Shown here piece by piece: positions 1 through 16,424 of a stretch of DNA of 26,982 nucleotides. The position numbers and the translations under genes are program-made. Every line of letters starts with the position of its first letter. Position 1 is the first letter of the stretch. Where the stretch lies: NCBI GenBank assembly GCA_030141605.1, contig JAQGDQ010001745.1, positions 1-26,982 of the forward strand. The letters run 5' to 3'. This DNA is from Tubiluchus corallicola (taxonomy: Eukaryota; Animalia; Priapulida). The notes beneath the pieces are model-generated. The model had not been told where the DNA came from and did no database searches. It saw only the letters and a list, made by a program, of their open reading frames with translations.

Positions 1-585
1 GTATTGAGTGTTTGGGTTAAGTAAAGCAATCAACACCATTACATGAGTGCTGTATTGAGTGTTTGGGTTAAGTAAAGCAATCAACACCATTACATCAGTG
101 CTGTATTGAGTGTTTGGGTTAAGTAAAGCAATCAACACCATTACATCAGTGCTGTATTGAGTGTTTGGGTTAAGTAAAGCAATCAACACCATTACATCAG
201 TGCTGTATTGAGTGTTTGGGTTAAGTAAAGCAATCAACACCATTACATGAGTGCTGTATTGAGTGTTTGGGTTAAGTAAAGCAATCAACACCATTACATG
301 AGTGCTGTATTGAGTGTTTGGGTTAAGTAAAGCAATCAACACCATTACATGAGTGCTGTATTGAGTGTTTGGGTTAAGTAAAGCAATCAACACCATTACA
401 TGAGTGCTGTATTGAGTGTTTGGGTTAAGCAAAGCAATCAACACCATTACATGAGTGCTGTATTGAGTGTTTGAGTTAAGTAAAGCAATCAACACCATTA
501 CATGAGTGCTGTATTGAGTGTTTGGGTTAAGTAAAGCAATAAACACCATTACATGAGTGCTGTATTGAGTGTTTGGGTTAAGTAA
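1..585. repeat. 51-bp tandem satellite, ~11.5 copies, runs off the left edge; reverse complement of the array at 9599-11330
   Basis: Unit GTATTGAGTGTTTGGGTTAAGTAAAGCAATCAACACCATTACATGAGTGCT repeats every 51 bp; units 2-4 carry CATCAG instead of CATGAG. Confidence 0.97.
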
Positions 586-1179
586 AATTAAACATTTTGG
601 GCACTAAAATAATTCTAGGTTGATCGCATGATAGTAATTGTGCAACGTGTGAACATTACTGTATATTTTTGCTTGATATGTCCTCATGATAGTTATTATT
701 CATCACTTATCATCATTCCAGTTCTATTTCTGTTATTCTGCAATAGGTAAGCCTATTGTGGAGTCTCAAACTCATGTGAGTACTGTCCTGTAAATTCCCC
801 ACACTGTGTGTTCTTTCTTAAAACAAGCCTGTATTCCAGAAAGTTTTCAATTGCTCACTGCTGTTTTCAGTAAGCCACTGAAGGCAAACAATCAGACCCA
901 GATTCTGCTGTAGACAGATATCGTTGTTTGTTTTCCCTGGCCAGAAGAATGTTGCAGTGAGCAATTGAAAATCTGCTAGAGCGGCAAGTTGGTTTAAGAA
1001 ACTTTAGCATAACTGCTGAAGTTACAAAACAAAAACAATGATATTAAATTCTCACAATGCCTTATGAGAACTACGTTAAGTGACATGTTGCATGCCAGCT
1101 TTAATTAGAAATGAATTAGACATTCACAATGGAAGTAAAGACCTTGAAGACGTTGATTTTGCAAAATTACTAATCATTT
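586..1179 (+). repeat. Left non-tandem arm of a large inverted repeat; partner at 9011-9598
   Basis: Aligns base by base to the reverse complement of 9011-9598; similarity stops after ...AATTACTAATCATTT (1179). Confidence 0.95.
814..1001. mobile_element. ~190-bp palindromic MITE-like element inside the inverted-repeat arm; other copies at 9190-9377 and (diverged) 7741-7940
   Basis: Outer IR TTTCTTAAA/TTTAAGAAA; perfect 18-bp inner IR TTTTCAATTGCTCACTGC (844-861) / GCAGTGAGCAATTGAAAA (954-971). Confidence 0.55.
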
Positions 1180-3459: not shown

Positions 3460-4354
3460 AAATAAGCGACTATTAGTAATCATTCTAATTTCTAAAAGTC
3501 AGTTAACCTTAAAGGAAGATTTTTCATACACTACCCTATTTTCAAGTCGATAAAAAGGGCATATTTTAACACAATTAATACTGCAAAAGCGTTTCTGATA
3601 ATTAAATAATAGATTAAACACTTAATTAACTGCGGGCGAGCCCAGCTATTGATGACATCACAAACTAACATAACTTTCAACAGCAAAAATACTCCATGAG
3701 CGTGTTGCACGTGTTTGTGAAAGTGAAAATTGAAGTACAGTGCTACTGTAAGATATTCAGTGTGTTGTACTAAAGCTAGGCACGTTTTAAGATGAAAACT
3801 CAAATCTCTACTTTACCGCTGTGCTTACGCATGAGCTGTCGAACGTGTGTACTTCGTCACAAACAAACGCATTTGAACTGAGAGGTACAGCAGCTGTTTT
3901 TGTGCCATGCGTTTTCGAAATGCAGGCGCTAGTGCCCGTCTAACTAGCGAATGGCGAAATTCATGTAGCAGTGAAGAACTAGTGGCGCGAACGTGAAATT
4001 GTGTTAGTGTGATAACTATTTTTTCACGTAAGTCATTTTTGAAAAAATAGTTTTTTTTTTCAATATTTTAAAGAGTAGATTGTTTTGACCTACAGTTTAA
4101 GATTGGGTCAGGTTTTGTTTTAAAATCTTATATAATTGTCATGCTTTCTAGCCTCAAGTGGTGAATACATGCTATGTATATTTTGTCTTGGTGTTAGGCA
4201 GTAACAGTCTTGATTCAAACACACATTCAGTCTAGCCTTTTTACATTTCTCACTATTAGTCAGAGGTATGGTTTCAAAAATTTGACAAAACTTGGTAAAA
4301 ATTACAAATAGTTTTTTGTACATAAAAGATTCAATATTTGCTTCTCCAAATGAG

Positions 4355-5029
4355 TCTTGAACAGAGACAGAAATCACTTGAAAAGATAAACCATCATCGC
4401 ACAGAAACAACAGAACGTCTTCTTGATGGTCTTGAACAAAGACAGAAATCACTTGAAAAGATAAACCATCATCGCACAGAAACAACAGAACGTCTTCTTT
4501 ATGGTCTTGAACAGAGACAGAAATCGCTTGAAAGGATAAACCATCATCGTAGTGAAACAACAGAACGTCTTCTTGATGGTCTTGAACAGAGACAGAAATC
4601 ACTTGAAAAGATAAACCGTCATCGCACAGAAACAACAGAACGTCTTCTTTATGGTCTTGAACAGAGACAGAAATCGCTTGAAAGGATAAACCATCATCGT
4701 AGTGAAACAACAGAACGTCTTCTTGATGGTCTTGAACAGAGACAGAAATCACTTGAAAAGATGAACCGTCATCGCAGAGAAACAACAGAACGTCTTCTTA
4801 ATGGTCTTGAACAAAGACAGAAATCACTTGAAAAGATAAACCGTCATCACAGAGAAACAACAGAACGTCTGCTTGATGGTCTTGAACAAAGACAGAAATC
4901 ACTTGAAAAGATAAACCATCATCACAGAGAAACAACAGAACGTCTTCTTGATGGTCTTGAACAGAGACAGAAATCACTTGAAAAGATAAACCGTCATCGC
5001 AGAGAAACAACAGAACGTCTTCTTGATGG
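4355..5029. repeat. 75-bp tandem repeat, 9 copies; the unit is the GPCR C-terminal codons + stop + start of 3'UTR
   Basis: CTTGAACA recurs at 4356, 4431, 4506 ... 4956; the minus strand of the copy at 4955-5029 reads IKKTFCCFSAMTVYLFK*. Confidence 0.97.
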
Positions 5030-6602
5030 CATTTCTAAACTCTTTGATTCGAGCGGCATAAATGAACACGTTAAAAAGAGAGTTACTTATTCCGAGAGAG
5101 CCCACGTAGAGAAACACGTAACTATCTGGTTTCATGTTCACACAGACTGATCGTGGGCAAAATGCATACACTAACACACACGTCTTGTATGGTATCCACA
5201 ATACAAAGAAAATTCCCAGTACGAGAAGCAATGTCTTCATCATTCTAACAGTACTCTTCATCAAGTAACTATTTCTCGATTCCTGAGTCTCCGTGGCAAT
5301 TGATCCATTTGTCTCTTTGGATTTGATGTGGCAATTGATCCATTTGTCTCTTTGGTTTTGAAGTATCAATTGATCCATTTGTCTCTTTGGTTCTGATGTG
5401 GCAATTGATCCATTTGCCTCTTTCGTTCTGATGTGGCAATTGATCCATTTGTCTCTTTGGTTCTGATGTGGCAATTGATCCATTTGTCCCTTTGGTTCTG
5501 ATGTGGCAATTGATCCATTTGTCTCTTTGGTTCTGTTGTGGCAATTGATCCATTTGTCTCTTTGGTTTTGATGTGGCAATTGATCCATTTGTCTCTTTGG
5601 TTCTGATGTGGCAATTGATCCATTTGTCTCTTTGGTTTTGATATGGCAATTGATCCATTTGTCTCTTTGGTTCTGATGTGGCAATTGATCCATTCGTCTC
5701 TTTGGTTTTGATGTAGCAACTGATCCATTTGTCTCTTTGGTTTTGATGTGGCAATTGATCCATTTGTCTCTTTGGTTCTGATGTGGCAATTGATCCATTC
5801 GTCTCTTTGGTTTTGATGTAGCAACTGATCCATTTATCTCTTCGGTTTTGATGTGGCAATTGATCCATTTGTCTCTTTGGTTCTGATGTGGCAATTGATC
5901 CACTTGTCTCTTTGGTTCTGATATGGCAATTGATCCATTTATCTCTTCGGTTTTGATGTGGCCTCGCACGCTTATTGTCGTCTCAACATGTGATGAGTGA
6001 ATGCTTCGTAGGTGGCGTATTGTTTCCTTGGCTATACGTGTGTACAGAAAAATAACAAGAAAATAAGTTGACAGGTCAACCATCATGAGCCCCGCCCACC
6101 ATCGGGCTGCCCACGGCCCACTCAAAGTAAGGCAATGTCTCCTGAAAGATACCCGATCGTACGTCACACTTGTAAGAATAGCAGAAATGATCCCTACCAT
6201 CCAGGCAGCCACAATGAAACCCCAGATGAATTTGGCCGTCATAATGGTCCGGTGCCTAAGCGGATAAAATACGGCGAGGTACCGCTCTATGGAAAGAAAG
6301 AAGTACGAATAGATGGACGGTATGCTGCCGATCATAGCCAGCATTGTTGCGATCTGGCACCAATGCCCAGTATTCTGCAGCTGCAGCTGGTAAACTAAAA
6401 CGTGAAAAAGAATACTGATACCAAAGAAGGCATCGGCTGCCGAGAGGTTTCCGATAAAGTAATACGTCACACTTCTTAAATTCTTCGACTTGTAGATGAC
6501 GAAAATGACCATTCCGTTGGCAACGACCACGGCGACTGCCTCGAAACCCCAGACGCCTATGATGAACTGAGGAAAATCGTCTACTGATGTTGTTTCATTC
6601 AT
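4974..6602 (-). CDS. Intronless rhodopsin-like (class A) GPCR, ~542 aa, orphan; ICL3 greatly expanded by a 35-bp minisatellite
   Basis: First ATG of the ORF at 6602 (MNETT, N-glycosylation sequon, A at -3). TM1 VVANGMV, TM2 NLSAAD, Cys at top of TM3 and in ECL2, ERY motif (SIERYLAVFYP), TM4 Trp, TM5 ending LYTRI, TM6 FFVLWIPY, TM7 NSLFNVFIY, helix 8 EFRNAIKK, C-terminal CC. Ligand class cannot be assigned by eye. Confidence 0.93.
   Translation of the reverse strand: MNETTSVDDFPQFIIGVWGFEAVAVVVANGMVIFVIYKSKNLRSVTYYFIGNLSAADAFFGISILFHVLVYQLQLQNTGHWCQIATMLAMIGSIPSIYSYFFLSIERYLAVFYPLRHRTIMTAKFIWGFIVAAWMVGIISAILTSVTYDRVSFRRHCLTLSGPWAARWWAGLMMVDLSTYFLVIFLYTRIAKETIRHLRSIHSSHVETTISVRGHIKTEEINGSIAISEPKRQVDQLPHQNQRDKWINCHIKTEEINGSVATSKPKRRMDQLPHQNQRDKWINCHIKTKETNGSVATSKPKRRMDQLPHQNQRDKWINCHIKTKETNGSIATSEPKRQMDQLPHQNQRDKWINCHNRTKETNGSIATSEPKGQMDQLPHQNQRDKWINCHIRTKEANGSIATSEPKRQMDQLILQNQRDKWINCHIKSKETNGSIATETQESRNSYLMKSTVRMMKTLLLVLGIFFVLWIPYKTCVLVYAFCPRSVCVNMKPDSYVFLYVGSLGISNSLFNVFIYAARIKEFRNAIKKTFCCFSAMTVYLFK
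5293..5962. repeat. 35-bp coding minisatellite, 19 copies with no indels, inside GPCR ICL3
   Basis: Unit GTGGCAATTGATCCATTTGTCTCTTTGGTT(C/T)TGAT; first GTGGC at 5293, closing GTGGC at 5958 (665 = 19 x 35). Confidence 0.97.
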
Positions 6603-9010: not shown

Positions 9011-9598
9011 AAATGATTAGTAATTTTGCAAAATCAACGTCTTCAAGGTCTTTACTTCCATTGTGAATGTCTAATTCATTTCTAATTAAAGCTGGCATGC
9101 AACGTGTCACTTAACGTAGTTCTCATAAGGCATTGTGGGAATTTAATATCATTGTTTTTGTTTTGTAACTTCAGCAGTTATGGCTAAAGTTTCTTAAACC
9201 AACTTGCCGCTCTAGCAGATTTTCAATTGCTCACTGCAACATTCTTCTGGCCAGGGAAAACAAACAACGATATCTGTCTACAGCAGAATCTGGGTCTGAT
9301 TGTTTGCCTTCAGTGGCTTACTGAAAACAGCAGTGAGCAATTGAAAACTTTCTGGAATACAGGCTTGTTTTAAGAAAGCACACAAAGTGTTGGGAATTTA
9401 CAGGACAGTACTCACATGAGTTTGAGACTCCATAATAGGTCTACCTATTGTAGAATAACAGAAATAGAACTGAAACGATGAATAATAACTATCATGAGGA
9501 TATATAAAGCAAAAATATACAGTAATGTTCACACGTTGCACAATTACTATCATGCGATCAACCTAGAATTATTTTAGTGCCCAAAATGCTTAATTTTT
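9011..9598 (-). repeat. Right non-tandem arm of the large inverted repeat
   Basis: Reverse complement of 586-1179. Confidence 0.95.
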
Positions 9599-11330
9599 TA
9601 CTTAACCCAAACATTTAATACAGCACTGATGTAATGGTGTTGATTGCTTTACTTAACCCAAACACTCAATACAGCACTCATGTAATGGTGTTGATTGCTT
9701 TACTTAACCCAAACACTCAATACAGCACTCATGTAATGGTGTTGATTGCTTTACTTAACCCAAACACTCAATACAGCACTCATGTAATGGTGTTGATTGC
9801 TTTACTTAACCCAAACACTCAATACAGCACTCATGTAATGGTGTTGATTGCTTTACTTAACCCAAACACTCAATACAGCACTCATGTAATGGTGTTGATT
9901 GCTTTACTTAACCCAAACACTCAATACAGCACTCATGTAATGGTGTTGATTGCTTTACTTAACCCAAACACTCAATACAGCACTCATGTAATGGTGTTGA
10001 TTGCTTTACTTAACCCAAACACTCAATACAGCACTCATGTAATGGTGTTGATTGCTTTACTTAACCCAAACACTCAATACAGCACTCATGTAATGGTGTT
10101 GATTGCTTTACTTAACCCAAACACTAATACAGCACTCATGTAATGGTGTTGATTGCTTTACTTAACCCAAACACTCAATACAGCACTCATGTAATGGTGT
10201 TGATTGCTTTACTTAACCCAAACACTCAATACAGCACTCATGTAATGGTGTTGATTGCTTTACTTAACCCAAACACTCAATACAGCACTCATGTAATGGT
10301 GTTGATTGCTTTACTTAACCCAAACACTCAATACAGCACTCATGTAATGGTGTTGATTGCTTTACTTAACCCAAACACTCAATACAGCACTCATGTAATG
10401 GTGTTGATTGCTTTACTTAACCCAAACACTCAATACAGCACTCATGTAATGGTGTTGATTGCTTTACTTAACCCAAACACTCAATACAGCACTCATGTAA
10501 TGGTGTTGATTGCTTTACTTAACCCAAACACTCAATACAGCACTCATGTAATGGTGTTGATTGCTTTACTTAACCCAAACACTCAATACAGCACTCATGT
10601 AATGGTGTTGATTGCTTTACTTAACCCAAACACTCAATACAGCACTCATGTAATGGTGTTGATTGCTTTACTTAACCCAAACACTCAATACAGCACTCAT
10701 GTAATGGTGTTGATTGCTTTACTTAACCCAAACACTCAATACAGCACTCATGTAATGGTGTTGATTGCTTTACTTAACCCAAACACTCAATACAGCACTC
10801 ATGTAATGGTGTTGATTGCTTTACTTAACCCAAACACTCAATACAGCACTCATGTAATGGTGTTGATTGCTTTACTTAACCCAAACACTCAATACAGCAC
10901 TCATGTAATGGTGTTGATTGCTTTACTTAACCCAAACACTCAATACAGCACTCATGTAATGGTGTTGATTGCTTTACTTAACCCAAACACTCAATACAGC
11001 ACTCATGTAATGGTGTTGATTGCTTTACTTAACCCAAACACTCAATACAGCACTCATGTAATGGTGTTGATTGCTTTACTTAACCCAAACACTCAATACA
11101 GCACTCATGTAATGGTGTTGATTGCTTTACTTAACCCAAACACTCAATACAGCACTCATGTAATGGTGTTGATTGCTTTACTTAACCCAAACACTCAATA
11201 CAGCACTCATGTAATGGTGTTGATTGCTTTACTTAACCCAAACACTCAATACAGCACTCATGTAATGGTGTTGATTGCTTTACTTAACCCAAACACTCAA
11301 TACAGCACTCATGTAATGATGTTGATTGCT
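9599..11330. repeat. 51-bp tandem satellite, ~34 nearly identical copies
   Basis: Unit ACTTAACCCAAACACTCAATACAGCACTCATGTAATGGTGTTGATTGCTTT; one 1-bp deletion near 10126; first and last units degenerate. Confidence 0.98.
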
Positions 11331-11351
11331 ATACTGAATAAGCACTGTAAT

Positions 11352-15679: not shown

Positions 15680-16424
15680 TATTACGGTCACAGTAAAAAA
15701 GTCACAATTTTGGCTTAGTAAAAGTCACAGTAAAAAGTCACAATTTTGGCTTAGTAAAAGTCACAGTAAAAAGTCACAGTTTTGGCTTAGTAAAACTCAC
15801 AGCAAAAAAGCCACAATTTTGGCTTAGTAAAAATCACAGTAAAAAAGTCACAATTTTGGCTTAGTAAAAGTCACAGTAAATAAGTCACAATTTTGGCTTA
15901 GTAAAAGTCACAGTAAAAAAGTCACAATTTTGGCTTAGTAAAAGTCACAGTAAAAAAGCCACAATTTTGGCTTAGTAAAACTCACAGTAAAAAGGTCATA
16001 ATTTTGGCTTAGTAAAACTCACAGCAAAAAAGCCACAATTTTGGCTTAGTAAAAGTCACAGTAAAAGGTCACAATTTTGGCTTAGTAAAAGTCACAGTAA
16101 AAAGGTCACAATTTTGGCTTAGTAAAAGTCACAGTAAAAAAGTCACAATTTTGGCTTAGTAAAAGTCACAGTAAAAAGCCACATTTTGGGCTTAGTAAAA
16201 GTCACAGTAAACAAGTCACAATTTGGCTTAGTAAAAGTCACAGTAAAAAAGTCACAATTTTGGTTTAGTAAAAGTCACAGTAAAAATGCCACACTTTTGG
16301 CTTAGTAAAAGTCACAGTAAACTTTGCCTAGGTTAGGCTTAGGCATAGGTTCAGGGGTTAGCGTTATTTCTTATCCTGTACTTTTTTTCTGTGACCTTTT
16401 CACCTGTGTCTTTTTCCCTGGATT
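15680..16424. mobile_element. Foldback-like non-autonomous element: ~37-bp tandem array (~17 copies), telomere-like spacer, then inverted copies of the subrepeat
   Basis: Unit GTCACAGTAAAAAAGTCACAATTTTGGCTTAGTAAAA (15688-16320); TAGGTTAGGCTTAGGCATAGG...GGGGTTAG (16329-16361); TTTTTTTCTGTGACCTTTTCACCTGTG (16382-16408) is inverted relative to the array. Confidence 0.7.

What the first reader, a model, noticed from the sequence alone, without database searches (positions are those of the whole stretch)
5293..5962. Frame-cycling 35-bp VNTR in ICL3: a candidate copy-number ON/OFF switch in an animal GPCR
Seen: 19 indel-free units of 35 bp, not a multiple of 3. The consensus unit has no stop in any minus-strand frame, so the protein passes through all three frames and forms a 35-aa super-repeat (HIKTKETNGSIATSEPKRQMDQLPHQNQRDKWINC) about six times. 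19 = 1 + 18, and 18 x 35 = 210 codons, so only counts of 1 mod 3 reach TM6/TM7. The other two frames stop within ~12 codons after the array (HGDSGIEK*, PRRLRNREIVT*), one of them earlier at a variant unit (5366), giving a 5-TM protein with a long tail. Established: non-triplet coding repeats drive phase variation at bacterial contingency loci, and ICL3 controls G-protein and arrestin coupling. Inference: +/-1 or 2 units truncates the receptor and +/-3 tunes ICL3 length. Caveat: a random count is in frame one time in three.
Basis: partly seen in the sequence, partly recalled or inferred. Interest (0 to 1): 0.88.

Follow-up and report, generated by a model that had tools for sequence, protein, structure and literature searches.

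The report
Non-triplet repeat inside a receptor loop
A 35-base DNA repeat, whose length is not a multiple of three, fills one inner loop of an unbroken animal cell-surface receptor gene; it likely grew partly in steps of three copies that keep the gene readable, so it is more likely a tolerated passenger than an on/off switch.

Summary
A single open frame (minus 6602-4974, 542 aa, Pfam 7tm_1) encodes a class A GPCR. Its third intracellular loop holds 19 indel-free 35-bp units, read through all three frames; only counts of 1 mod 3 reach TM6/7. Both array junctions occur in public contigs, and a second sample carries the upstream one. An array-free paralog (83% alike over TM6-7) has a short loop in the same frame as one unit, so the array grew from one coding 35-mer. 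Allelic changes in the flank are mostly silent (10 of 15), whereas array variants are neutral (6 of 29). Rare unit variants recur three units apart and no neighbouring units are identical, which disfavours single-unit slippage. Controls weaken this: a non-coding array nearby shows the same period, and 47.5% of the window is tandem repeat. Best reading: a passenger minisatellite in a predicted disordered loop, kept in frame by purifying selection (0.6). The ON/OFF switch is not supported: copy-number variation, out-of-frame alleles and expression were not shown. The scan's index held no earlier report of this feature on other DNA.

The parts
4974..6602 (-). Single-ORF class A (rhodopsin-family) GPCR, 542 aa, ATG at 6602, TGA at 4976-4974; orphan, nearest named relative a Priapulus caudatus 'adenosine receptor A2a-like' protein
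5963..6602 (-). N-terminus, TM1-TM5 and start of ICL3 (aa 1-213); allelic differences mostly silent
5293..5962 (-). 19 x 35-bp coding minisatellite plus terminal 5-bp GCCAC microhomology; encodes aa 214-435 as a 35-aa repeat, predicted mostly disordered
5648..5857 (-). Units 4-6 and 7-9: two 105-bp blocks differing at 2 of 105 bases, the clearest trace of a three-unit (35-codon) duplication
5858..5962 (-). Units 1-3: a possible older three-unit block (unit 1 shares two rare variants with unit 4; 6 of 105 bases differ from units 4-6)
4974..5292 (-). End of ICL3, TM6, ECL3, TM7, helix 8 and C-tail; reached only when the unit count is 1 mod 3
4354..5029 (-). Second, independent tandem amplification in the same gene: 9 x 75 bp made of the last codons, the stop codon and the first downstream bases; copies 2-9 lie after the stop

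Best explanation
The array is a 35-bp coding minisatellite in the third intracellular loop of an unbroken GPCR gene; it likely grew from one ancestral coding 35-mer and is likely a tolerated passenger whose count is held at 1 mod 3 by selection against truncated receptors. Steps: (1) Inferred: slippage or unequal exchange between two GCCAC pentamers 35 bp apart started the array, in a genome that makes minisatellites very often. (2) Shown: the unit has no stop in any sense frame, so translation runs through all three frames and gives a 35-aa repeat. (3) Predicted: the insert forms a disordered loop of about 180 aa and the seven-helix bundle still folds. (4) Inferred: gains or losses of 1 or 2 units give 5-TM null alleles that are purged or stay rare, while three-unit (105-bp) steps are kept. 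(5) Shown by silent/replacement counts: the amino-acid sequence of the repeat is not constrained.
For: A paralog contig in runs X1, X3 and X4 matches TM6-7 at 197 of 237 bases and has no array. In X3's 1127-letter contig, 112 letters lie where the window has 730; one unit would give 100, the same frame (that the two pieces belong to one contig is inferred from equal length and depth). ICL3 in 61 aligned relatives is 22-131 aa (median 36) against 266 here. Allelic coding differences over 5963-6602 are 10 silent and 5 replacement on 147/493 sites, pN/pS 0.15, binomial p 0.0004, with no stop or coding indel. Array variants are 6 silent of 29, against an expected fraction of 0.19. The three unit pairs that share two or more variants (1/4, 4/7, 5/8) are all three apart; mean distance is lowest at lag 3 (1.94 against 2.47-2.72 at lags 1, 2, 4, 5; permutation p 0.008); no neighbours are identical. 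Simulations gave both features in 60% of in-frame histories, 0-2% of short-step free histories and 6-10% of free 1-4 or 1-6 unit histories. AlphaFold2 with 62 sequences gives seven confident helices and pLDDT < 50 for aa 225-403. TRF arrays cover 47.5% of the window, and the same gene carries a second, 75-bp array.
Against: The lag-3 trace rests on about two events. Counting shared-variant pairs gives only p of about 0.09. A non-coding 37-bp array in the same window also has its lowest distances at lags 3 and 6. In a window around the observed values, in-frame and free multi-unit simulations are equally likely (0.14 against 0.11-0.15). Units 9-12 could also be read as a two-unit step. The silent excess concerns TM1-5 only and may predate the array; this gene's TM6-7 showed no allelic difference in X1 and was not covered in X3. 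Three of the 15 coding differences come only from X3 contigs under depth 5. The first step from 1 to 4 units needs a triple amplification or passage through null alleles. In human ESTs most non-triplet copy-number variants shifted the frame and three-copy steps were rare (PMC1273636, passages; short units). Expression was not shown.
Confidence: 0.6

Rival explanations
1. Decaying or dispensable duplicate. The array varies freely, this allele is in frame by the one-in-three chance, null alleles drift, and the array-free paralog covers the function.
For: An array-free paralog exists. Free multi-unit histories fit the array's internal pattern about as well in the near-observed window. The genome makes arrays constantly. 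This gene shows many allelic differences, while the paralog's listed differences from the window are the same in X1 and X3.
Against: pN/pS of 0.15 among alleles with only conservative replacements. No stop or indel in 665 array bases or in either coding flank. The lag-3 signal.
Confidence: 0.27
2. Adaptive ON/OFF switch. Frequent, reversible +/-1 unit changes toggle between a 7-TM receptor and a 5-TM form, between individuals or between cells, and this variability is selected.
For: The geometry allows it. A single-ORF gene might escape junction-dependent decay, so the 5-TM form could be made (inference). Truncated GPCRs can hold back full-length partners, as with D3nf (PMC5714154, passage). 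Weak hints that array composition differs between alleles: an X1 contig across two units at about half depth, and a consensus-to-unit-2 depth ratio of about 6.4 in X1 against about 1.9 in X3.
Against: No out-of-frame allele was seen. The array is imperfect, with no identical neighbours; mostly single-unit slippage gave both observed features in 0 of 408 simulated histories. The 5' end of the array appears to be shared by two samples. The organism looks diploid (half-depth bubbles), which blunts a one-allele switch. The depth hints are unreliable: X4, the same sample as X1, gives about 2.9 where about 5.3 is predicted.
Confidence: 0.06
3. The array lies in a new intron and is spliced out, so its frame does not matter.
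For: No RNA was available to exclude it. GT and AG dinucleotides exist near both ends.
Against: The eight GT sites between TM5 and the array score at most 4 of 7 on a simple donor consensus, and the 15 AG sites near the array end have at most 8 pyrimidines in 15 bases; the sense strand of the array is 46% A. The paralog and relatives are colinear on both sides.
Confidence: 0.04
4. Assembly artefact: the count of 19, or the array's position, is wrong.
For: Contigs from short reads cannot count units, and no piece spanning the array was examined.
Against: X1 contigs join unique flank to array at both ends with no differences, and break exactly where the window's own 31-mer graph predicts (5351 and 5873). 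Depths of three repeat contigs give about 6.7, 2.6 and 2.6 copies against 6, 2.8 and 2.0 predicted. X1 may be the window's source sample.
Confidence: 0.03

Closest known systems
DRD4 exon 3 48-bp VNTR (human dopamine D4 receptor; PMC3164202, abstract and outline seen)
   Same: A coding tandem repeat in the third intracellular loop of a class A GPCR, which lengthens the loop.
   Different: The DRD4 unit is 48 bp, so every count is in frame, and its variation is well documented. Here the unit is 35 bp, the protein period is three DNA units, two of three counts truncate the receptor, and variation is not yet shown. No homology of the repeat is claimed.
Bacterial simple-sequence-repeat contingency loci / translational phase variation (PMC3315296, PMC5909438; starts of abstracts seen)
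   Same: A non-triplet repeat inside a coding sequence, so unit count sets the downstream frame.
   Different: Those tracts are short perfect units that slip reversibly at high rate in haploid clones. This is a long, imperfect unit in mid-gene of an apparently diploid animal, with no trace of recent single-unit steps.
Frameshifting coding tandem-repeat polymorphisms in human genes (PMC1273636, passages)
   Same: Non-triplet coding repeats exist in animals; the paper estimates that up to 1% of proteins may carry frameshifting repeat polymorphisms.
   Different: The passages seen concern mostly 2-5 base units in short perfect arrays; none described a 665-bp array translated through all three frames.
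Ohno's oligomeric-repeat principle (recalled, not from a call; the search found no paper stating it)
   Same: A stop-free unit whose length is not a multiple of three encodes the same periodic peptide in all three frames.
   Different: It was proposed for primordial genes. Here it is realised inside a modern receptor, where the non-repetitive TM6-7 still needs one particular frame.
Truncated GPCR variants such as dopamine D3nf (PMC5714154 and PMC7756140, passages)
   Same: An out-of-frame allele here would be a truncated receptor with a new tail, possibly able to retain a full-length partner.
   Different: D3nf is a splice variant, not a DNA copy-number allele (that it arises by an ICL3 frameshift is recalled). 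No truncated product has been observed here.
Priapulus caudatus XP_014668944.1 'adenosine receptor A2a-like' and an unnamed Logan protein (P0022, P0021)
   Same: The two closest relatives among 1.84 billion representatives (E 9e-44 and 1e-50, about 35% identity), sharing RRHCLT in ECL2 and the ECL3 cysteines.
   Different: Both have short loops without a repeat. The name is an automatic annotation; the ligand is unknown.

Membership tests
Class A GPCR (Pfam PF00001) | Score above the Pfam gathering threshold over the whole profile | tested here: met
   118.9 bits against 30.5; profile 2-260 of 260
Class A GPCR (Pfam PF00001) | Seven-helix bundle with conserved motifs | tested here: met
   Confident helices in the model; N29, D57, ERY 106-108, W134, WIP 469-471, N511...Y515. 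The TM7 proline is V, and relatives have V or I.
Class A GPCR (Pfam PF00001) | Expressed and signalling | not testable with these tools
ICL3 coding VNTR (DRD4 type) | Tandem repeat inside the ICL3 coding sequence | tested here: met
   aa 214-435, between TM5 and TM6
ICL3 coding VNTR (DRD4 type) | Unit length a multiple of three | tested here: not met
   35 bp
ICL3 coding VNTR (DRD4 type) | Copy number varies between alleles | tested here: inconclusive
   Only contig-depth hints, which a same-sample control shows to be unreliable
Contingency locus / phase-variation switch | Non-triplet repeat sets the downstream frame | tested here: met
   In-silico counts 0-24
Contingency locus / phase-variation switch | Near-perfect tract with signs of frequent single-unit slippage | tested here: not met
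   13 unit types in 19, no identical neighbours, lag-3 sharing; single-unit model gave 0 of 408
Contingency locus / phase-variation switch | ON and OFF alleles coexist and interconvert | not testable with these tools
   Needs reads that span the array; only short-read contigs were listed

The most novel reading that the evidence does not exclude
A copy-number frame switch in an animal GPCR: in-frame (7-TM) and out-of-frame (5-TM, long repetitive tail) alleles coexist in the population or in somatic cells, the 5-TM form is made and damps the full receptor or its array-free paralog, and this on/off variation is maintained by selection. It would be a contingency locus in a metazoan signalling gene.
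Probability: 0.06. Interest if true: 0.85.

Novelty: new variant of a known kind. Interest (0 to 1): 0.4.

Why it matters
Coding repeats in animals are biased to triplet units. This is a clean natural case of a long non-triplet unit read through all three frames inside a receptor that appears to be under purifying selection. One PCR and long-read survey gives a three-way test: counts quantised at 1 mod 3 would show frame selection filtering a minisatellite; counts spread evenly would show a dispensable duplicate; out-of-frame alleles at stable frequency with expression would point to a switch, which would be new for animals. It also shows how a 40-aa receptor loop can become a 260-aa loop from one 35-bp slip.

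Tried and rejected
No whole genome is held for this window, so no genome-wide survey of paralogs or other coding arrays was possible. No RNA holder was listed, and run X6 (RNA by guess) laid nothing; neither is evidence on expression. X5 (another sample, same species label) showed only paralog-like contigs at depth 3-4, and X3 had no contig of this gene over TM6-7; such holes prove nothing. Reads were laid on the two flanks with one unit each, not on the whole array, so unit counts per allele stay open. The word-based homolog search with residues 1-215 found only distant insect receptors, and the search with alignment A1 added no close relative besides P0021. The exact protein is not in the collection. 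The three-sequence fold was too weak to use (mean pLDDT 49) and was replaced by the 62-sequence fold. P0028, the only listed best stretch confined to the array region (24%), is an unrelated-looking repetitive protein and was rejected as a low-complexity match. Absence of stops in the used frame is not significant by itself (about 6.7% of single changes give a stop; 0, 0 and 3 were seen in the three frames). The plus-strand 274-aa ORF at 4326-5150 has no family above cut-off and is taken as a by-product of the 75-bp array. Eight paper searches listed no report of a non-triplet ICL3 repeat or of an animal copy-number frame switch; the library lacks most subscription papers, and no supplements were read. 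PMC12871928 (passages) treats frameshifted repeats in general; the passages seen did not describe three-frame cycling. Look-ups of earlier findings by place and by sequence were empty, as was the first by words.

Full report
Observation. The finding is in the sequence as described. TRF reports 5293-5962, period 35, 19.1 copies, no indels. On the minus strand there are 19 full units (5962 down to 5298) followed by a last GCCAC; six units equal the consensus and the others differ at one to four bases. The array sits in one open frame from ATG 6602 to TGA 4974 (542 aa) that matches Pfam 7tm_1 over the whole profile (E 3.4e-34). An AlphaFold2 model with 62 sequences has seven confident helices and a low-confidence coil at aa 225-403, so the array is in ICL3. 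The consensus unit has no stop in any sense frame, which 6.1% of 20,000 shuffles achieve, and the three frames give rotations of one 35-aa repeat. In-silico alleles of 0-24 units reach TM7 only when n = 1 mod 3. What the sequence does not show is that the number varies.

Is it real DNA? No genome was held. Six public runs were listed, all as short-read contigs, none on record as RNA; X1, X2 and X4 are one sample, possibly the source, and X3 is another sample and study. I laid contigs on each flank with one unit. X1 joins unique sequence to the array at both ends with no differences at full depth, and its contigs end at 5351 and 5873, where the window's own 31-mer graph branches. Three repeat contigs have depths equal to about 6.7, 2.6 and 2.6 copies where the window predicts 6, 2.8 and 2.0, taking single-copy depth as about 165; the tool warns that depth is no copy number. 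X3 has the upstream junction and contigs with tandem units; one of these fits the unit-2 variant by length and number of differences (inferred). The array is therefore not private to one sample. Hints of allelic difference (a half-depth two-unit contig in X1; a lower consensus-to-unit-2 ratio in X3) are weak, because X4, the same sample as X1, also under-reports copies about twofold.

Origin. A paralog without the array is present in X1, X3 and X4, 83% alike over TM6-7. In X3's 1127-letter contig 112 letters separate the points that are 730 apart in the window; a one-unit gene would have 100, which is the same frame. The two nearest database relatives (an unnamed protein and Priapulus caudatus XP_014668944.1, about 35% identity) and 59 further aligned receptors have loops of 22-131 aa against 266 here. 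The array begins and ends with GCCAC, so the ancestor likely had one 30-mer between two 5-bp direct repeats, a typical substrate for slippage duplication (inference). The context makes such events ordinary: 47.5% of the window is tandem repeat, and the same gene has its C-terminal codons and stop amplified nine times as a 75-bp unit.

Selection. Of 28 rows of differences, I dropped three that belong to the paralog contig and ten upstream of the ATG. The other 15 are 10 silent and 5 conservative replacements (V7I, L69F, H80Y, I195V, H205R) on 147 silent and 493 replacement sites: pN/pS 0.15, p 0.0004. Three of the 15 come only from X3 contigs under depth 5. The gene's first five helices have thus been under purifying selection, although these alleles could be older than the array, and TM6-7 gave no allelic data. 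Inside the array 6 of 29 variant codons are silent, as expected without constraint (flank against array, Fisher p 0.007).

How the array grew. A switch that slips by single units should leave identical neighbours; growth filtered for frame should leave likeness three units apart. No neighbours are identical. Units 1/4, 4/7 and 5/8 share two or more variants, blocks 4-6 and 7-9 differ at 2 of 105 bases, and mean distance is lowest at lag 3 (permutation p 0.008). In toy simulations both features appeared in 0 of 408 and 1.8% of 387 accepted short-step free histories, in 6-10% of free multi-unit histories (328 and 259 accepted), and in 60% of 709 in-frame histories. Against this reading: a count of shared-variant pairs gives only p of about 0.09, the signal rests on about two events, a non-coding 37-bp array nearby also has a three-unit period, and close to the observed values the in-frame and free multi-unit models tie. 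Single-unit slippage as the main mode is disfavoured; frame-filtered growth is favoured but not proven. Splicing out is unlikely on sequence grounds (weak donors, no pyrimidine tract) but untested.

Mechanism. Most likely (0.6) the array is a passenger that lengthens a disordered loop; three-unit steps are silent for frame and survive, while other steps give 5-TM nulls that are purged. Next (0.27) is a dispensable duplicate that happens to be in frame. The adaptive switch (0.06), an intron (0.04) and an assembly error (0.03) follow. Any effect of the longer loop on G-protein or arrestin coupling is untested.

Comparison with what is known. The nearest case is the 48-bp DRD4 VNTR in ICL3 (PMC3164202; abstract and outline), which is always in frame. 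Frameshifting coding repeats are known in human genes, mostly with short units (PMC1273636; passages). Bacterial phase variation uses short perfect tracts (listings); this locus meets the frame criterion but fails the homogeneity and single-step criterion, and the population criterion could not be tested. Truncated receptors can be dominant negative (D3nf; passages in PMC5714154 and PMC7756140). That non-triplet stop-free repeats read alike in all frames is Ohno's idea (recalled). Eight searches listed no report of a non-triplet ICL3 repeat; PMC12871928 (passages) did not describe one in what I saw. Earlier notes of this scan record other minisatellites in GPCR genes of sharks and an annelid (not tested here), but not this feature.

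Verdict. A real and unusual anatomy, a new variant of the ICL3 coding repeat, with an ordinary most-likely cause and a cheap decisive test. Interest 0.4; 0.85 if a population survey showed a maintained on/off polymorphism.

Noticed in passing
window 4354-5029: Nine 75-bp copies of this receptor's own last codons and stop (helix-8 end, FCCF motif, TGA). In some copies the stop triplet is changed, but all lie after the first stop. The plus strand gives a stop-free 274-aa repetitive ORF (4326-5150).
   Followed up: partly
window 1-586 and 9597-11335: Two arrays of what reads as the same 51-bp unit in opposite orientation (11.5 and 34.1 copies, 98-99% matches), about 9 kb apart and flanking the receptor gene.
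   Followed up: no
window 15687-16321: Non-coding 36/37-bp array with a three-unit (110-bp) higher-order period; used as a control against the frame-selection reading.
   Followed up: partly
whole window: 47.5% of the 27 kb is tandem repeat: more than ten minisatellites and several long microsatellites, with no other recognisable long coding frame in the ORF list.
   Followed up: partly
runs X1, X3, X4, X5 laid on window 5030-5266: An array-free paralog of the receptor (83% alike over TM6-7; 17 silent and 7 replacement codons among the 24 scored, from 27 of 34 listed rows). X5 holds a slightly different version of it.
   Followed up: partly
protein hits P0021, P0022: The receptor belongs to a small orphan subfamily whose only named close member is from Priapulus caudatus, a lead (not a test) that the organism may be a priapulid or relative.
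   Followed up: partly
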